Made by a program: the position numbers and the translations under genes | The notes under the pieces: generated by a model | Told to the model about the DNA's origin: nothing | The model's input: the letters and a program-made list of their open reading frames with translations, nothing else | The model's database searches: none | Part shown: positions 1 to 32,001 of the stretch, piece after piece | Layout of the letters: the number at the start of each line of letters is the position of its first letter | How positions within the stretch are numbered: the first letter of the stretch is position 1 | Virus record (IMG/VR): IMGVR_UViG_2548876947_000004 | Origin: a virus | Lineage: Duplodnaviria; Heunggongvirae; Uroviricota; Caudoviricetes | DNA length: 64,000 bases | Reading direction: 5' to 3' (one strand)

Positions 1-207
1 TGGCAGAACCGCATTAAATTTACACTGGACCATAACTTCAGCCTTACCAGCGTCAAATTTGCGGATGAATTGCTTGAGCAGAACTCTGATATTGATAGTG
101 AAGATGTAGCGCAGCGACTGGACGCAGATTTCTTCCTGTTGACCAGTGAAATTTCGTGCCTGGTTGATGCTCTGGTAAATGCCCTTGGTGGAGAGGCTAA
201 GCAGTGA
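1..207 (+). CDS. 3' end of upstream gene (hypothetical; position of hrdC in P1 by memory), partial
   Basis: Frame 1 is open from window start to TGA at 205-207, overlapping the dmt GTG start (GTGA). No motif recognised. Confidence 0.45.
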   Translation, partial: WQNRIKFTLDHNFSLTSVKFADELLEQNSDIDSEDVAQRLDADFFLLTSEISCLVDALVNALGGEAKQ

Positions 208-3200
208 AAGAGCTGTGCTATGGATCTGTTTGCAGTGGAATTGAAGCTGCGAGTATTGCTTGGGAACCTTTGGGTATGCGTCCGGCCTGGTTTGCTGAAA
301 TTGAGCCTTTTCCATCTGCCGTTCTTGCGCACCGTTGGCCTCATGTCGCCAATCTTGGCGACATGACAAAACTTGCCAAAAAAGTCCTGGCAGGGGAAAT
401 CGAATCCCCTGATGTGCTGGTGGGAGGGACACCATGTTTTGCCGCGGGCCATATGGTTCTTTGTAAAAATGGTTATAAACCAATAGAAGATGTTTGCCCA
501 GGCGATTACGTAGTCAGTCATCTCGGGCGGTTACAACAAGTAAAAAGAGTTGGTTCAAAAATAGCTAATACGGGGTTACTTAATGCCGTTGGGCAGCCTT
601 TAGGTATAAGAACAACCAATGACCATCCCTTCCTGGCGGTTCGGTGGAAAGCCCAAAACACCCGGAAAAATGGCACATATTTTAAGAGAGAGTTGTTGTC
701 TGAACCGGAATGGCGAGCAGCATGTGATATGCCGGGATATCAATGGTGTGCTCTAACTAATTTCAATATTGCATCTCCAGATATTTGTTCTCGGTTCTTG
801 TCTGAAGAACAGGCTATGTATCTTGCGGGCGCTTATGTTGGCGATGGATATATTAGGAGATGGAGAGGTAAATCTAAGAAGGCGGTTGTTTTTGGCATAA
901 ATTGCCAGAAATTGAGAAAGTTTCATTGCCGCATACCAGAAAACATATTTTCCGTGGCAAGCGAAATCCGAGGGAGCATCAAAGTAACCTTGAATGATAC
1001 GTGTTATGCCAATTGGCTTAATGAACATTTTGGCGAGTTAAGCCATGCTAAGCGTATCCCTGCATGGGTGATGTCGCATCCATTGCGTCATGTGTTTTTA
1101 CAAGGCTATCTTGATACTGATGGGACACCAAGTGGTAAAGCGGGATTTAGAATTAATAGTGTTAGTCCTGCGCTTGCTTGGGGCGTTGCGGAGTTGTCAC
1201 AGACTTGTGGTTATGTTTCTTCGGTCAGCTTTATTGAAGTTGAGCCCAAAAAAGTGATTGAGGATCGCGTGGTAAATCAACGGAATTATTATCAGGTAAC
1301 AATCTGCCCGCAGAAATTGTCACGTAAATCAAGATTGGCTCATGGAATGCTTTTACGAACAGTCAAAGAGTTTAAATCGGTAGGCCTAGATACTGTATAC
1401 AACATAGAAGTCGAAGGTGATCATTCCTATATCCTCAATGGTGCGGTGGTCCATAACTGTCAGGCATTCAGTATCGCTGGATTACGTGGTGGGCTTGATG
1501 ATGAGCGTGGCGCGCTAACTTTAAAGTATGTGGAGCTTGCAAATGCAATTGACGACAAACGGGCTGAGTCATTTCTCAAACCAGCCGTTATCGTCTGGGA
1601 AAATGTCCCAGGAGTCTTGTCATCGGCAGATAACGCCTTCGGATGTTTCCTTGCCGGATTGGCTGGAGAAGATGCGCCATTCGAACCAGGTGATCGACCT
1701 GAATCAGGAAAAAGTAACGCGTTCTGGCGGTGGGATGTCAAAACCGGTTGCCATGCTCCAAAGTGGCCGCAGTGTGGTTGTATTTATGGACCGCAGCGAA
1801 AAGTGGCCTGGAGAATCCTTGATGCCCAATACTTCGGAGTGGCACAACGACGCCGACGCGTGTTTGTTGTCGCAAGTGCTCGAACAGACCTCGATCCCGC
1901 AACGGTACTTTTTGAGTTCGAAGGCGTGCGCCGGAATATTGCGCCGAGCCGAAAAAAGAAGGAAATCGCTTCCGCCATTATTGCAAATGGCGCTGCAATC
2001 AGTGGCGAAAGCCTAAATCCATGCCTACACGCTGACATGCCACCCGGTATGAAATCGACGAAAGCCGTAAACGCTTTCAGGATGGCAGCATTTGGGGAAT
2101 ATATTGACGATGAAACCGCATCGACAGTAAAGGCAAGAGATTTTAAAAATGCCACTGATCTTGCCGTTTTTAGCAGCACAGGAGCAGGTTTTTGGTCAGA
2201 AGGGCATGGTACATTGCGGGCACGTGAGCAAGAAAGCCATGAGCATCTTGTTACATTGGCTTTTCCTGAGCGTATAAGCGGTACACAACATGCTGCAACT
2301 AAGAATACTTCACCATCTCTAATGGCTAAAAATCCAACAGCTGTTTGCTATGAAGTAAGAAACGCAGAAGTAGCTGTCCGCCGTCTTACCCCTGTCGAAT
2401 GTGAAAGGCTGCAAGGTTTTCCTGATGGGCATACGTTGATCCCTACGGAAAAGCGTAAAAAAGTTAATTCAGATGAACTGGCATATCTTCGCAATCACTA
2501 TCCAGATTTAAGCGAAGAAGAGGCCGCGATGCTTGCAGCTGACGGACCGCGTTACAAAGCGATCGGCAATAGTATGGCGATACCAGTAATGTGCTGGATT
2601 GGCGATCGGATTACTAAGGCCGTATGCCGGCAGAAAGAAGGAAGTGAAACAAAAGAGCGAAAAGTTAAACCAGCGGCAGAATTCGAACGGTCCATATTCA
2701 AATGGGCTGGTGGAAAATTTGGTGTTCTGGAACAAATCTTTCGCTATTTGCCAGAAGGGAAGCGCCTGATTGAACCTTTCGTTGGTGGCGGAGCTGTCTT
2801 CATGAATGCCGGATACCAGGAAAATCTGCTAAATGATGTGAATGCTGACCTGATTAACTTTTACAAGACTCTGCAACGCGAGGCGCATTCACTTATCACT
2901 CTGGCACATCGTTTCTTCCTGGACTACAACACCCAGGAGGGATTCCTGGCAGTACGGAATGCGTTTAACAAACAAGTCTATGATGATTTACATCGCGCAG
3001 CGGCGTTTTTGTTCCTGAACCGACATTGTTTTAATGGATTGACGCGCTACAACCAGGCCGGTGAGTTCAATGTCGGTTATGGGAAGTATAAAACTCCGTA
3101 TTTCCCATTACAGGAGATGGAAGCCTTCCTCGGTGCGGAAGGGCGGTCTGAGTTTGTATGCGGTGATTTTGCAGCAGTGATTGAAGCTGCCGGAGAAGGA

Positions 3201-3491
3201 GATGTCATCTTTTGCGATCCGCCGTATGAACCGCTCCCCAATACAGAGGGGTTCACGAACTATTCCGGTCATGACTTTAAGTTTGAAGAGCAAAAACGCC
3301 TGGTGTCTCTGTTGACGGATGCTCATCGCCGAGGTGCAAAGGTACTCATTACTAACAGTGGCGCGCCAAACATCAGAGAGCTTTATCAGGACAGTGGCTT
3401 CAGAGTGGAACCTCTCTTTGCCAGACGTTCTGTGTCTTGTAAGGGAGACACTCGTGGTGTTGCTCATGACGTTATGGCAATATTGCTCTAA
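204..3491 (+). CDS. dmt: Bifunctional DNA methyltransferase (N-terminal C5-cytosine MTase fused to C-terminal Dam-like N6-adenine MTase), interrupted by an intein
   Basis: C5-MTase motifs: GGTPC...QAFSIAG (PCQ split by intein), ENVPG, QRRRRVFVV, GNS. Dam-like motifs: KWAGGK, FVGGGAV, DPPY. GTG start. Extein parts sum to 754 aa. Confidence 0.9.
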   Translation: MKELCYGSVCSGIEAASIAWEPLGMRPAWFAEIEPFPSAVLAHRWPHVANLGDMTKLAKKVLAGEIESPDVLVGGTPCFAAGHMVLCKNGYKPIEDVCPGDYVVSHLGRLQQVKRVGSKIANTGLLNAVGQPLGIRTTNDHPFLAVRWKAQNTRKNGTYFKRELLSEPEWRAACDMPGYQWCALTNFNIASPDICSRFLSEEQAMYLAGAYVGDGYIRRWRGKSKKAVVFGINCQKLRKFHCRIPENIFSVASEIRGSIKVTLNDTCYANWLNEHFGELSHAKRIPAWVMSHPLRHVFLQGYLDTDGTPSGKAGFRINSVSPALAWGVAELSQTCGYVSSVSFIEVEPKKVIEDRVVNQRNYYQVTICPQKLSRKSRLAHGMLLRTVKEFKSVGLDTVYNIEVEGDHSYILNGAVVHNCQAFSIAGLRGGLDDERGALTLKYVELANAIDDKRAESFLKPAVIVWENVPGVLSSADNAFGCFLAGLAGEDAPFEPGDRPESGKSNAFWRWDVKTGCHAPKWPQCGCIYGPQRKVAWRILDAQYFGVAQRRRRVFVVASARTDLDPATVLFEFEGVRRNIAPSRKKKEIASAIIANGAAISGESLNPCLHADMPPGMKSTKAVNAFRMAAFGEYIDDETASTVKARDFKNATDLAVFSSTGAGFWSEGHGTLRAREQESHEHLVTLAFPERISGTQHAATKNTSPSLMAKNPTAVCYEVRNAEVAVRRLTPVECERLQGFPDGHTLIPTEKRKKVNSDELAYLRNHYPDLSEEEAAMLAADGPRYKAIGNSMAIPVMCWIGDRITKAVCRQKEGSETKERKVKPAAEFERSIFKWAGGKFGVLEQIFRYLPEGKRLIEPFVGGGAVFMNAGYQENLLNDVNADLINFYKTLQREAHSLITLAHRFFLDYNTQEGFLAVRNAFNKQVYDDLHRAAAFLFLNRHCFNGLTRYNQAGEFNVGYGKYKTPYFPLQEMEAFLGAEGRSEFVCGDFAAVIEAAGEGDVIFCDPPYEPLPNTEGFTNYSGHDFKFEEQKRLVSLLTDAHRRGAKVLITNSGAPNIRELYQDSGFRVEPLFARRSVSCKGDTRGVAHDVMAILL
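435..1457 (+). mobile_element. Intein (341 aa) with LAGLIDADG homing-endonuclease domain, in frame within dmt
   Basis: Starts CFAAGHMVL (Hint block A), TTNDHPF (block B), LAGLIDADG-type YLAGAYVGDGY and FLQGYLDTDGT, ends VVHN followed by +1 Cys; splicing would restore GGTP-CQAFS. Confidence 0.85.
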
Positions 3492-4166: not shown

Positions 4167-4242
4167 GATGGTGTAGCTCAGTGGTTAGAGCGGTTGACTG
4201 TTAATCAACGGGTCGATGGTTCAAATCCATCCACCATCGCCA
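4167..4242 (+). tRNA. tRNA-Asn (anticodon GUU), with CCA
   Basis: Acceptor stem GATGGTG/CACCATC, D-arm AGCTCAGTGGTTAGAGC, anticodon loop CTGTTAA, T-loop GGTTCAAATCC, 3' GCCA. Confidence 0.9.
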
Positions 4243-4244
4243 AT

Positions 4245-4320
4245 GCCGGTTTAGCTCAGTTGGTAGAGCGCCTGCCTTGTAAGCAGGATGTCAGCGGTTC
4301 GAGTCCGTTAACCGGCACCA
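4245..4320 (+). tRNA. tRNA-Thr (anticodon UGU), with CCA
   Basis: Acceptor stem GCCGGTT/AACCGGC, anticodon stem-loop CCTGC-CTTGTAA-GCAGG, T-loop GGTTCGAGTCC, 3' ACCA. Starts 2 nt after tRNA-Asn. Confidence 0.9.
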
Positions 4321-5764: not shown

Positions 5765-5840
5765 GGCCCCTTAGCTCAGTGGTTAGAGCTGGCGACTCAT
5801 AATCGCACGGTCACCGGTTCAAGTCCGGTAGGGGCCACCA
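5765..5840 (+). tRNA. tRNA with anticodon CAU (Ile2-like, ileX-type; could be Met), with CCA
   Basis: Near-identical in acceptor, D and anticodon arms to the enterobacterial ileX tRNA as recalled; anticodon loop CTCATAA; acceptor GGCCCCT/AGGGGCC. Confidence 0.85.
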
Positions 5841-31464: not shown

Positions 31465-32001
31465 TGTTTTTTAGCTGCCGATGTTACATTGAACCTGACC
31501 TCTTGCGCCTTGAGGCATTTTCGGTTTATGCTTATCAGGCACCTCATTAAAACGGGTGCCGGGATTGGCCTCCCGCTTAAGTCTAAGGCGATACAGACGC
31601 CGCTCGCGTCTTTTTTTTGTATCGGCGTACACGCACACCTCTACAATGGTGGGCTGTATGGGGCTACCTTCGGGTAGGCTGGTTACCTTGGACGCCAGTA
31701 AGGCCAACTCCGTACAGTCCACCGCCAGCAAGATTGGTCTCTTCTGCGGTGGTTACATACCAACGTCTAAGGAGGCTGCCAATATGGCTACTATCCCTAC
31801 CCCAACTCATCCTGAATTTATCTGGCGCTTTTACTCCTGCCAAAAACGTCACTATCACTTCGTTATTGCACCAACAGAAGATGAGGCCCGCTCTCAGCTT
31901 CCTGACGCCCCATGTATTTTCTCTGCCCGTTTTTCCACTGATTCACGCAATTCTCTCAGTTACTGGTGCCTCCCTGTTAACGCTTCTGCTCAGGAGGGAC
32001 T

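What the first reader, a model, noticed from the sequence alone, without database searches (positions are those of the whole stretch)
435..1457. LAGLIDADG intein inserted in the catalytic PCQ motif of the phage C5/N6A methyltransferase
The dmt ORF is 1095 aa, but the C5-MTase motif reads GGTP then a 341-aa insert then CQAFSIAG. The insert starts with Cys, has Hint blocks A and B, two LAGLIDADG motifs, and ends His-Asn before a +1 Cys that is also the MTase catalytic cysteine. Removing it leaves 754 aa with intact C5 and Dam-like domains. Methyltransferase activity would then depend on protein splicing, and the homing endonuclease could spread the intein to intein-less dmt alleles during co-infection. 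I am not aware of this being described for P1-type dmt.
Basis: partly seen in the sequence, partly recalled or inferred. Interest (0 to 1): 0.75.

Follow-up and report, generated by a model that had tools for sequence, protein, structure and literature searches.

The report
Intein inside phage P1-type dmt methyltransferase
The DNA methyltransferase gene of this P1-like phage-plasmid is interrupted, just before its catalytic cysteine, by a self-splicing protein element (an intein with a homing endonuclease); about a third of P1-type dmt genes in E. coli carry it, and I found no paper describing it.

Summary
ORF 204..3491 encodes a 1095-aa P1-type Dmt (C5-cytosine plus Dam-type adenine methyltransferase). 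Codons 78-418 (nt 435..1457) are a 341-aa insert that is exactly absent from reference P1 Dmt (754 aa, GTP|CQAFS).

The insert has the sequence features of a class-1 intein:
- Cys1, a block B TxxH motif, two LAGLIDADG motifs with their Asp residues, block F, and a terminal His-Asn followed by Cys+1.
- A confident AlphaFold model (pLDDT 93) whose best PDB matches are the bifunctional inteins TliVMA, PI-SceI and PI-PfuI.
- Cys+1 aligns with the catalytic Cys81 of M.HhaI.

The element is polymorphic. It is in 152 of about 480 dmt-carrying complete E. coli genomes. All 30 copies examined were intact, and it occurs with three of four target-recognition-domain classes. Its synonymous diversity is lower than that of its flanks (2- to 9-fold), and flank linkage fades within about 200 nt. 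This fits recent spread, by homing or by recombination.

Related inteins occupy the same P|C site of C5 methyltransferases in many phyla, always after a -1 proline, which inteins usually tolerate poorly.

Splicing and endonuclease activity were not tested. The Dam domain probably does not need splicing. Verdict: a real new member of a known kind, of moderate interest.

The parts
204..3491 (+). dmt ORF: 1095-aa precursor (121.6 kDa) made of C5-cytosine MTase, intein and Dam-type N6-adenine MTase
   Evidence: ORF list; Pfam PF00145 and PF02086; 98% identical to RCS47 dmt and, outside the insert, to P1 dmt; masses
204..434 (+). N-extein, 77 aa, ending GGTP (first half of C5-MTase motif IV; motif I-like CSGIEAAS at nt 231-254)
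   Evidence: Alignment to intein-less Dmt and to M.HhaI
435..1457 (+). Intein, 341 aa (38.3 kDa), Cys1 to Asn341
   Evidence: Exact gap against 754-aa Dmt; Pfam Hint_2, LAGLIDADG_3 and Intein_splicing; AF2 pLDDT 93.1; Foldseek hits to TliVMA, PI-SceI and PI-PfuI inteins at E 1e-16 to 1e-11
435..473 (+). Intein block A (CFAAGHMVLCKNG), with Cys1 as nucleophile
   Evidence: C1, F2, A4, G5 and G13 invariant in 7 diverse same-family inteins
615..626 (+). Intein block B TxxH (T61-N-D-H64)
   Evidence: T61 and H64 invariant in alignment A3; coordinates
762..1304 (+). LAGLIDADG homing-endonuclease domain (about intein aa 110-290; borders approximate)
   Evidence: Secondary structure of the model; Foldseek matches to I-DmoI and I-SceI over about 180 columns; Pfam LAGLIDADG_3
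822..848 (+). LAGLIDADG motif 1 (LAGAYVGDG; Asp137)
   Evidence: D137 and G138 invariant in A3; no polymorphism in 30 copies
1098..1124 (+). LAGLIDADG motif 2 (LQGYLDTDG; Asp229)
   Evidence: G224, Y225 and G230 invariant in A3; no polymorphism in 30 copies
1395..1430 (+). Intein block F (VYNIEVEGDHSY; Asp329)
   Evidence: V321, N323, V326 and D329 invariant; aligns with the Spl DnaX mini-intein C-terminus
1446..1457 (+). Intein block G (VVHN; His340-Asn341)
   Evidence: N341 invariant in 15 sequences and in A3
1458..1460 (+). Cys+1: the splice-junction nucleophile and also the catalytic cysteine of C5-MTase motif IV (PCQ)
   Evidence: Spliced sequence GGTPCQAFSIAG aligns with M.HhaI AGFPCQAFSISG, placing this Cys at HhaI residue 81. 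That Cys81 is the HhaI nucleophile is established knowledge.
1458..3488 (+). C-extein, 677 aa: rest of the C5 MTase (ENV at 1599-1607, QRRRR at 1845-1874, motif IX at 2379-2426, motif X at 2565-2588) plus the Dam-type domain
1875..2378 (+). Variable target-recognition region of the C5 MTase (the 168-aa class, as in P1)
   Evidence: Four length classes among 80 alleles; the intein occurs with three of them
2703..3404 (+). Dam-type (D12 class) N6-adenine MTase domain, DPPY at 3216-3227
   Evidence: Pfam PF02086, 192 bits; coordinates
432..434 (+). Pro(-1) codon CCA, a synonymous marker perfectly linked to the intein (intein-less alleles have CCT)
   Evidence: 30 of 30 intein-bearing alleles have CCA; 49 of 50 intein-less have CCT and one CTT. 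In IMG/VR the empty site occurs 77 times with CCT and 0 times with CCA.

Best explanation
Nt 435..1457 encode a canonical class-1 intein carrying a LAGLIDADG homing endonuclease. It sits in frame between Pro and Cys of the PCQ catalytic motif (motif IV) of the C5-cytosine methyltransferase half of P1-type Dmt.

Inferred pathway, from the established class-1 mechanism:
1. The 121.6-kDa precursor is translated.
2. Intein Cys1 makes an N-to-S acyl shift at the Pro77-Cys78 bond, helped by block B Thr61 and His64.
3. Cys+1 (residue 419) attacks the thioester.
4. Asn341 cyclises, helped by His340 and block F Asp329, and releases the 38.3-kDa intein.
5. An S-to-N shift leaves an 83.3-kDa Dmt with a native GGTPCQAFS motif.

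Shown here: the anatomy, the exact junctions, the fold, conservation of the catalytic residues, and the polymorphic, unusually uniform distribution. Inferred: that splicing happens and restores C5 activity. The Dam-type domain lies entirely in the C-extein and most likely works with or without splicing.

The freed intein (or the precursor) would cut intein-less dmt alleles across the empty GGxACxCC|TGTCAGGC site when two P1-like elements meet in one cell. Repair from the intein-bearing copy would then copy the intein together with about 150 nt of flank. I rate this step as about even odds of being currently active.
For: - Exact 341-aa presence/absence against P1 Dmt and 50 other intein-less alleles.
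- Pfam Hint_2, LAGLIDADG_3 and Intein_splicing hits.
- Motif positions C1, T61xxH64, D137, D229, D329 and H340-N341, followed by C+1; all but D229 and H340 are invariant across inteins only 28-51% identical.
- AF2 model with pLDDT 93.1 and pTM 0.90. Its best PDB matches are HE-containing inteins: TliVMA at 8.7e-17, PI-SceI at 1e-16, PI-PfuI and PI-PkoII.
- Cys+1 aligns with M.HhaI Cys81.
- All 30 copies are 1023 nt with no stop or frameshift, and pN/pS in the splicing domain is 0.07.
- All 153 places in complete E. coli genomes cover at least 80% of the element.
- Evidence for mobility: the intein occurs with 3 of 4 target-recognition classes. Its synonymous diversity is 0.015, against 0.136 (N-extein) and 0.036 (C-extein) in the same alleles. 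Divergence between intein-bearing and intein-less alleles peaks at 0.05-0.07 within -150..+130 nt and falls to background beyond about 200 nt. No empty site carries the intein-linked CCA codon.
- Related inteins sit at the same G-x-P|C...HN|CQ site in C5 MTases of Gemmiger, Lachnospira, Chloroflexia, Flavobacteriales, Actinomycetota and Spirochaetaceae and Mannheimia, showing a long-lived adaptation to this site.
Against: - No experiment: neither splicing nor DNA cleavage was observed.
- The -1 residue is proline, which tested natural and engineered inteins generally handle poorly (PMC6486613). Splicing could therefore be slow or conditional, although Pro(-1) is the native context of the whole family.
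- The Hint_2 and Intein_splicing Pfam scores are below their curated cut-offs.
- pN/pS in the endonuclease domain is 0.62, against 0.07 in the splicing domain (Fisher p = 0.03 on small counts). This hints at relaxed constraint on the nuclease.
- The flank linkage and the low intein diversity could come from one insertion spread by ordinary homologous recombination among P1-like plasmids.
- C5 methylation by P1 Dmt is itself only 'perhaps' in the GenBank annotation.
Confidence: 0.85

Rival explanations
1. It is a genuine, splicing-competent intein, but its endonuclease is inactive or decaying. Its present distribution would then reflect one old insertion spread by vertical descent and ordinary homologous recombination among P1-like phage-plasmids, not by homing.
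For: pN/pS is 0.62 in the endonuclease domain against 0.07 in the splicing domain (Fisher p = 0.03). Linkage decay around the site is what recombination alone would also give. One 51%-identical relative (P0007) has Asn in place of the second LAGLIDADG Asp and Asn in place of the penultimate His, and mini-inteins lacking the nuclease exist at the same site (P0019, P0022). Loss of the nuclease therefore does occur in this family.
Against: Both catalytic Asp residues and Lys206 are unchanged in all 30 copies, and none has a stop or frameshift. Intein synonymous diversity is 2- to 9-fold lower than that of the flanks in the same alleles, which points to recent spread. No uninvaded allele carries the intein-linked CCA codon.
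Confidence: 0.4
2. The insert is an intein relic that no longer splices. Intein-bearing alleles would then make a Dmt with a dead C5 domain but a working Dam domain, tolerated because only GATC methylation matters to the phage.
For: Pro at -1 is unfavourable for most tested inteins. C5 activity of P1 Dmt is not established. The reference P1 allele carries Gly-to-Trp next to motif IV, which suggests the C5 domain can be dispensable. The Mannheimia relative P0008 keeps the intein in a C5 MTase truncated right after CQ.
Against: Every residue needed for the four splicing steps is present and invariant. The splicing domain is under strong purifying selection (pN/pS 0.07), which a dead insert would not show. 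All extein C5 motifs are intact. The same site is occupied across phyla with HN|C conserved.
Confidence: 0.08
3. The insert is an ordinary accessory domain of the methyltransferase, or an assembly or annotation artefact, and not a mobile element.
For: None beyond the fact that databases name the protein only 'Dam family site-specific DNA-(adenine-N6)-methyltransferase'.
Against: It is absent from about two thirds of otherwise 96-99% identical alleles, at exactly the same codon. It has an intein fold. It is present in more than 130 independent plasmid records and 152 complete genomes.
Confidence: 0.01

Closest known systems
Bifunctional LAGLIDADG inteins with solved structures: Thermococcus litoralis VMA intein (7qsu/7qss), PI-SceI (1vde, 1lws), PI-PfuI (1dq3), PI-PkoII (2cw7)
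   Same: Same two-part architecture, a HINT splicing domain split by a LAGLIDADG endonuclease. Foldseek E 1e-16 to 1e-9, TM about 0.55-0.62. Cys1, block B TxxH, two LAGLIDADG Asp residues and terminal His-Asn plus Cys+1.
   Different: Only 12-17% sequence identity. It is smaller (341 aa against 360-540) and lacks the extra DNA-recognition region of PI-SceI and the stirrup domain of PI-PfuI. The host protein and insertion site differ, and the -1 residue is Pro.
Inteins of actinophage and mycobacteriophage DNA methylases (Kelley et al. 2016, PMC5050341; Gosselin et al. 2023, PMC9957025; bioRxiv 10.1101/2025.01.02.630785, which lists C-5 methylase IPR001525 among invaded proteins)
   Same: Phage-borne orphan DNA methyltransferases invaded by LAGLIDADG inteins, with patchy distribution and signs of transfer between diverged host alleles.
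   Different: Those occur in Actinobacteria phages, and the ones described in detail are in N6/N4 methylases. I could not check whether the actinophage C-5 cases use the same P|C site. This one is in an enterobacterial phage-plasmid, in a fused C5 plus Dam enzyme.
Unpublished database relatives at the same site: C5 MTases of Mannheimia haemolytica (P0008, 47% identical), metagenomic P0007 (51%), P0013-P0015 (32%), Gemmiger/Lachnospira (39-40%), Chloroflexia, Flavobacteriales and Actinomycetota (31-33%), plus mini-inteins P0019 and P0022
   Same: Same insertion point, G-x-P | C...H-N | C-Q-x-x-S-x-A, with Cys1, Cys+1 and the CF[AT]AG start. These are allelic inteins of one family.
   Different: Only 28-51% identity. 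The host MTases are single-domain and unrelated in target-recognition region. Some lack the endonuclease or have lost key residues. None is in a P1-type Dmt.
DnaX mini-inteins (Spl DnaX 7cfv; Ssp DnaX)
   Same: Best PDB sequence match to the C-terminal splicing blocks F and G (E 0.0015). Engineered Ssp DnaX inteins are the published case of splicing with Pro at -1 (PMC6486613).
   Different: These are mini-inteins without an endonuclease, in a different host protein. The similarity is limited to about 40 residues.

Membership tests
Class-1 intein (HINT domain protein-splicing element) | In-frame insertion whose removal restores a contiguous conserved host protein; intein-less alleles exist | tested here: met
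   754-aa P1 Dmt and 50 other alleles lack exactly these 341 aa
Class-1 intein (HINT domain protein-splicing element) | N-terminal nucleophile Cys, Ser or Thr (block A) | tested here: met
   Cys1 (TGT, nt 435-437), invariant in the family alignment
Class-1 intein (HINT domain protein-splicing element) | Block B TxxH | tested here: met
   T61-N-D-H64, with both T and H invariant
Class-1 intein (HINT domain protein-splicing element) | Blocks F and G with terminal (His-)Asn, followed by a +1 Cys, Ser or Thr | tested here: met
   VYNIEVEGDHSY...VVHN|C. N341 is invariant in 15 sequences and the following Cys nearly so.
Class-1 intein (HINT domain protein-splicing element) | HINT fold | tested here: met
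   AF2 pLDDT 93.1; Foldseek top 16 hits are all inteins. Pfam Hint_2 scores 28.1 bits against a cut-off of 28.4, marginally below.
Class-1 intein (HINT domain protein-splicing element) | Autocatalytic excision and extein ligation | not testable with these tools
   Needs expression with SDS-PAGE or MS. Expected sizes: 121.6 kDa giving 83.3 + 38.3 kDa.
LAGLIDADG homing endonuclease (intein-borne, pseudo-dimeric) | Two LAGLIDADG helices, each ending in a catalytic acidic residue | tested here: met
   LAGAYVGD137G and LQGYLDTD229G, unchanged in 30 copies; Pfam LAGLIDADG_3 at 36.5 bits against a cut-off of 22.5
LAGLIDADG homing endonuclease (intein-borne, pseudo-dimeric) | Alpha-beta-beta-alpha-beta-beta-alpha fold, duplicated | tested here: met
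   Model helices and strands over aa 124-292; Foldseek hits to I-DmoI and I-SceI at E 3e-5 to 2e-4
LAGLIDADG homing endonuclease (intein-borne, pseudo-dimeric) | Site-specific cleavage of the intein-less allele, and homing | not testable with these tools
   Only indirect population signals are available. pN/pS of 0.62 in this domain leaves current activity open.
C5-cytosine DNA methyltransferase (PF00145), the host protein | Motif IV PCQ with catalytic Cys, motif VI ENV, motif VIII QxRxR, and motifs IX and X | tested here: met
   After in-silico splicing: GGTPCQAFS, WENVPG, QRRRRVF, RRLTPVECERLQGFPD and GNSMAIPV. Aligns with M.HhaI and M.HaeIII at E 7e-9; Pfam 103 bits.
C5-cytosine DNA methyltransferase (PF00145), the host protein | Demonstrated m5C formation | not testable with these tools
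   The GenBank note for P1 says 'perhaps at C5 cytosine'
Dam / D12-class N6-adenine methyltransferase (PF02086), the host protein | D12 domain with the DPPY catalytic motif | tested here: met
   Pfam 192 bits, aa 834-1067; DPPY at aa 1005-1008

The most novel reading that the evidence does not exclude
This would be an actively homing intein in the E. coli model phage P1 family that splices natively across a Pro(-1)-Cys junction and uses the methyltransferase's own catalytic cysteine as its +1 nucleophile. C5 methylation by Dmt would then be gated after translation by splicing, possibly in a redox- or condition-dependent way. Surviving intein-less alleles would be protected by the synonymous CCT codon at the cleavage site. 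If so, it offers a genetically tractable homing and immunity system in E. coli, and a proline-tolerant intein scaffold.
Probability: 0.3. Interest if true: 0.65.

Novelty: new member of a known kind. Interest (0 to 1): 0.45.

Why it matters
- P1 is a workhorse of E. coli genetics, and P1-like phage-plasmids are under close study as carriers of resistance genes. Yet about a third of their dmt genes, including one sequenced laboratory P1 isolate (OP279344), contain an intein that annotation pipelines label only as 'Dam family methyltransferase'.
- Intein-bearing and intein-less alleles both occur naturally in a phage with excellent genetics. Intein homing, co-conversion and target-site immunity (CCT against CCA) could therefore be tested directly by mixed infection in E. 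coli.
- The whole intein family sits after a proline, a junction that tested natural and engineered inteins generally handle poorly (PMC6486613). A member that splices well there would be a useful protein-engineering tool.
- Anyone measuring methylation or restriction evasion by P1-like elements should know that the C5 half of Dmt may need splicing, and that the reference P1 allele differs from the others (no intein, Gly-to-Trp next to the catalytic motif).

Tried and rejected
- Literature: ten full-text searches combined intein with dmt, phage P1, RCS47, P1-like, Punavirus, phage-plasmid, cytosine methyltransferase or motif IV. None described this element. Hits for 'intein + RCS47' and 'intein + dmt' were unrelated co-mentions. 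Gilcrease & Casjens 2018 (Virology), the most likely place for a mention, is not held, so I cannot exclude a mention there.
- PDB sequence search with the insert gave only weak hits (Spl DnaX at E 0.0015, PI-PkoII at 0.025). The fold search was needed for a clear answer.
- GC content: the insert is somewhat AT-richer (0.42-0.44) than its flanks (0.47-0.54). This is too mild to serve as evidence of foreign origin.
- Chance or artefact and 'ordinary domain present in all homologues' were rejected on the presence/absence polymorphism.
- I looked for degraded copies. L014 has a nonsense codon in the N-extein and L058 a poly-C assembly artefact, but neither affects the intein itself.
- The high pN in the Dam domain of intein-bearing alleles probably comes from an unaligned indel in a few loci. 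I did not use it.
Full report
**1. The observation**

The window opens inside the P1 hrdC/rdgC gene. ORF 204..3491 (+) follows, with a GTG start, and encodes 1095 aa. Reading the DNA directly:
- Codon 78 is TGT (Cys, nt 435-437).
- Codons 417-418 are CAT AAC (His-Asn, nt 1452-1457).
- Codon 419 is TGT (Cys, nt 1458-1460).

The protein therefore reads ...VLVGGTP | CFAAGHMVL ... Pfam places a C5-cytosine methylase domain (PF00145, 103 bits) and a D12/Dam domain (PF02086, 192 bits) in the flanking parts. In the insert it finds LAGLIDADG_3 (36.5 bits, above its cut-off), Hint_2 (28.1 bits, 0.3 below its cut-off) and Intein_splicing (21.6 bits, below).

**2. It is a precise presence/absence polymorphism**

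Megablast against phage records finds the full-length gene in phage RCS47 and vB_EcoM-Ro157c2YLVW. Reference P1 (AF234172/NC_005856), P7, SJ46 and others match only outside the insert. A protein alignment shows that reference P1 Dmt (754 aa) lacks exactly residues 78-418 and is 98% identical elsewhere.

I fetched 78 IMG/VR loci encoding Dmt:
- 30 alleles carry the insert, always 1023 nt. 50 lack it and read GGTPCQAFS at the junction.
- In complete E. coli genomes the insert DNA is in 152 of 5426 genomes, and every place covers at least 80% of it.
- The Dam-domain end of dmt is in 480 genomes. About 32% of P1-type dmt genes therefore carry the insert.
- It is also in 133 PLSDB plasmids of Escherichia (coli, fergusonii, albertii), Salmonella and Shigella.

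**3. It is an intein with a homing endonuclease**

The key positions are:
- Cys1
- block B Thr61-x-x-His64
- LAGLIDADG 1, LAGAYVGD137G
- LAGLIDADG 2, LQGYLDTD229G
- block F, VYNIEVEGD329HSY
- block G, VVH340N341, followed by Cys+1

In an alignment of seven family members only 28-51% identical, C1, T61, H64, D137, K206, D329 and N341 are invariant.

An AlphaFold2 model built on 15 homologues is confident (mean pLDDT 93.1, pTM 0.90). Its 16 best Foldseek matches in the PDB are all bifunctional inteins: TliVMA (E 8.7e-17), PI-SceI (1e-16), PI-PfuI, PhoVMA and PI-PkoII. Free-standing LAGLIDADG enzymes (I-DmoI, I-SceI) follow, matching the central domain.

**4. The +1 cysteine is the methyltransferase nucleophile**

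The in-silico spliced C5 domain aligns with M.HhaI. GGTPCQAFSIAGLRGGLDDERGAL pairs with AGFPCQAFSISGKQKGFEDSRGTL, which puts Cys+1 on HhaI residue 81. That residue is the catalytic nucleophile by established knowledge. Motifs VI (ENV), VIII (QRRRR), IX and X are intact. The unspliced precursor has 341 residues wedged into the catalytic loop. I infer, but have not shown, that C5 activity needs splicing.

The Dam-type domain (aa 834-1067) lies wholly in the C-extein and should not need it. This matters because the documented essential role of dmt is GATC methylation for pac-site packaging in dam- hosts (PMC12707154).

**5. Population signals of spread**

- All 30 copies are intact. There are 16 distinct sequences, with 15 synonymous-only and 16 non-synonymous polymorphic codons.
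- Synonymous diversity of the intein is 0.015. In the same alleles it is 0.136 in the N-extein and 0.036 in the first 160 C-extein codons. The element is much more uniform than the gene it sits in.
- The intein occurs with three of the four target-recognition-region classes of the C5 domain. Counts with / without the intein are: 86 aa, 15/1; 168 aa, 14/44; 221 aa, 1/1; 276 aa, 0/4.
- Divergence between intein-bearing and intein-less alleles is 0.05-0.07 from -150 to +130 nt around the site and falls to 0.01-0.02 beyond about 200 nt. This looks like a co-conversion tract or a decayed linkage block.
- The Pro(-1) codon is CCA in all 30 intein-bearing alleles and CCT (once CTT) in all 50 empty ones. 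Across IMG/VR the empty site occurs 77 times with CCT and never with CCA. Either every CCA target has been invaded, or CCA arrived with the intein. The data cannot tell these apart.
- pN/pS is 0.07 in the splicing domain and 0.62 in the endonuclease domain (Fisher p = 0.03 on small counts). Splicing is clearly under selection. The nuclease may be under weaker constraint, as expected late in a homing cycle.

**6. A wider family at the same site**

A protein search with the insert found related inteins in other C5 methylases: P0007 (51% identical), Mannheimia haemolytica P0008 (47%, in 578 contigs), P0013-15 (32%), and two mini-inteins without the nuclease.

A scan of one genome per species found full-length relatives in Gemmiger, Lachnospira, Chloroflexia, Flavobacteriales, Actinomycetota, Deinococcales and Spirochaetaceae. 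Most have the junction G-x-P | CF[AV]AG...HN | CQxxS.

The proline at -1 is thus native to the family. That is notable because tested natural and engineered inteins have generally worked poorly with Pro at -1 (PMC6486613).

**7. What is known**

- Inteins in phage DNA methylases are established for mycobacteriophage N6/N4 enzymes (PMC5050341) and an actinophage methylase family (PMC9957025). A 2025 survey lists C-5 methylases among invaded actinophage proteins.
- I found no paper linking an intein to P1, dmt or P1-like phage-plasmids. One likely source is not held.
- Databases name this exact protein 'Dam family site-specific DNA-(adenine-N6)-methyltransferase'. A few fragments are auto-labelled 'Hint domain-containing' or 'LAGLIDADG family homing endonuclease'.

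**8. Verdict**

- Splicing dependence concerns the C5 half only.
- Homing is plausible but unproven.
- The kind of element is well known.

I class it as a new member of a known kind, with moderate interest (0.45). The attraction is practical: natural intein-bearing and intein-less alleles in the best-studied E. coli phage-plasmid, a candidate immunity polymorphism at the target site, and a native Pro(-1) junction.

Noticed in passing
L002:3001-5262 (reference P1 dmt); equivalent window codon 74 = nt 423-425: Reference P1 (AF234172/NC_005856) reads VLVWGTPCQ where all 79 other alleles examined have VLVGGTPCQ (GGG to TGG). This Gly-to-Trp change lies three residues before the catalytic Cys. It may cripple the C5 domain of the laboratory reference strain, which could explain why C5 methylation by P1 is only 'perhaps' in its annotation.
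   Followed up: partly
window 1875-2378; loci L003, L046, L076-L080: The region between motifs VIII and IX of the C5 domain comes in four length classes (86, 168, 221 and 276 aa). The 276-aa form looks like a composite of the 221-aa and 168-aa forms. Target-recognition domains appear to be swapped or stacked among P1-like phages, presumably changing the m5C specificity.
   Followed up: partly
L003 (OP279344.1, 'Escherichia phage P1 isolate del res del mod'): A sequenced laboratory P1 derivative carries the intein plus the 86-aa recognition class (Dmt of 1013 aa), unlike the reference P1 genome. Laboratory P1 stocks therefore differ at dmt.
   Followed up: partly
P0008 (Mannheimia haemolytica, 439 aa, 578 contigs): A 47%-identical intein sits at the same site in a C5 methylase whose C-extein ends 21 residues after the intein (CQSDKGGTVKASGGGFEWRE). 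The intein is apparently intact in a truncated or decayed host gene, yet it is very widespread in that species.
   Followed up: no
window 441-443 (intein codon 3): The window's intein has Ala3 (GCC; CFAAGH). The other 15 distinct intein sequences among the 30 copies examined have Thr3 (ACC; CFTAGH). Most distant family members have Ala at this position.
   Followed up: no
L014:1501-1732 and L058:1501-1760: One intein-bearing allele has a nonsense codon (TTG to TAG) in the N-extein upstream of an intact intein. Another has a poly-C run that looks like an assembly artefact.
   Followed up: yes
E. coli chromosomes NZ_CP007392-4 (strain ST2747) and NZ_CP015229 (strain 06-00048): Five of the 153 intein places in complete E. 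coli genomes are on chromosomes rather than plasmids. Either a P1-like element has integrated, or a plasmid has been merged into the chromosome assembly. Strain 06-00048 has one copy on the chromosome and one on a plasmid.
   Followed up: no
window 31539-31729: Rfam hits to isrK (60.8 bits) and C4 antisense RNA (75.9 bits) lie side by side, as expected for the P1 immI (c4/icd/ant) immunity region.
   Followed up: no
window 4167-4320 and 5765-5840: tRNA-Asn(GTT), tRNA-Thr(TGT) and a CAT-anticodon tRNA (annotated tRNA-Ile2 in P1) lie downstream of dmt, in the same order and spacing as in P1.
   Followed up: no
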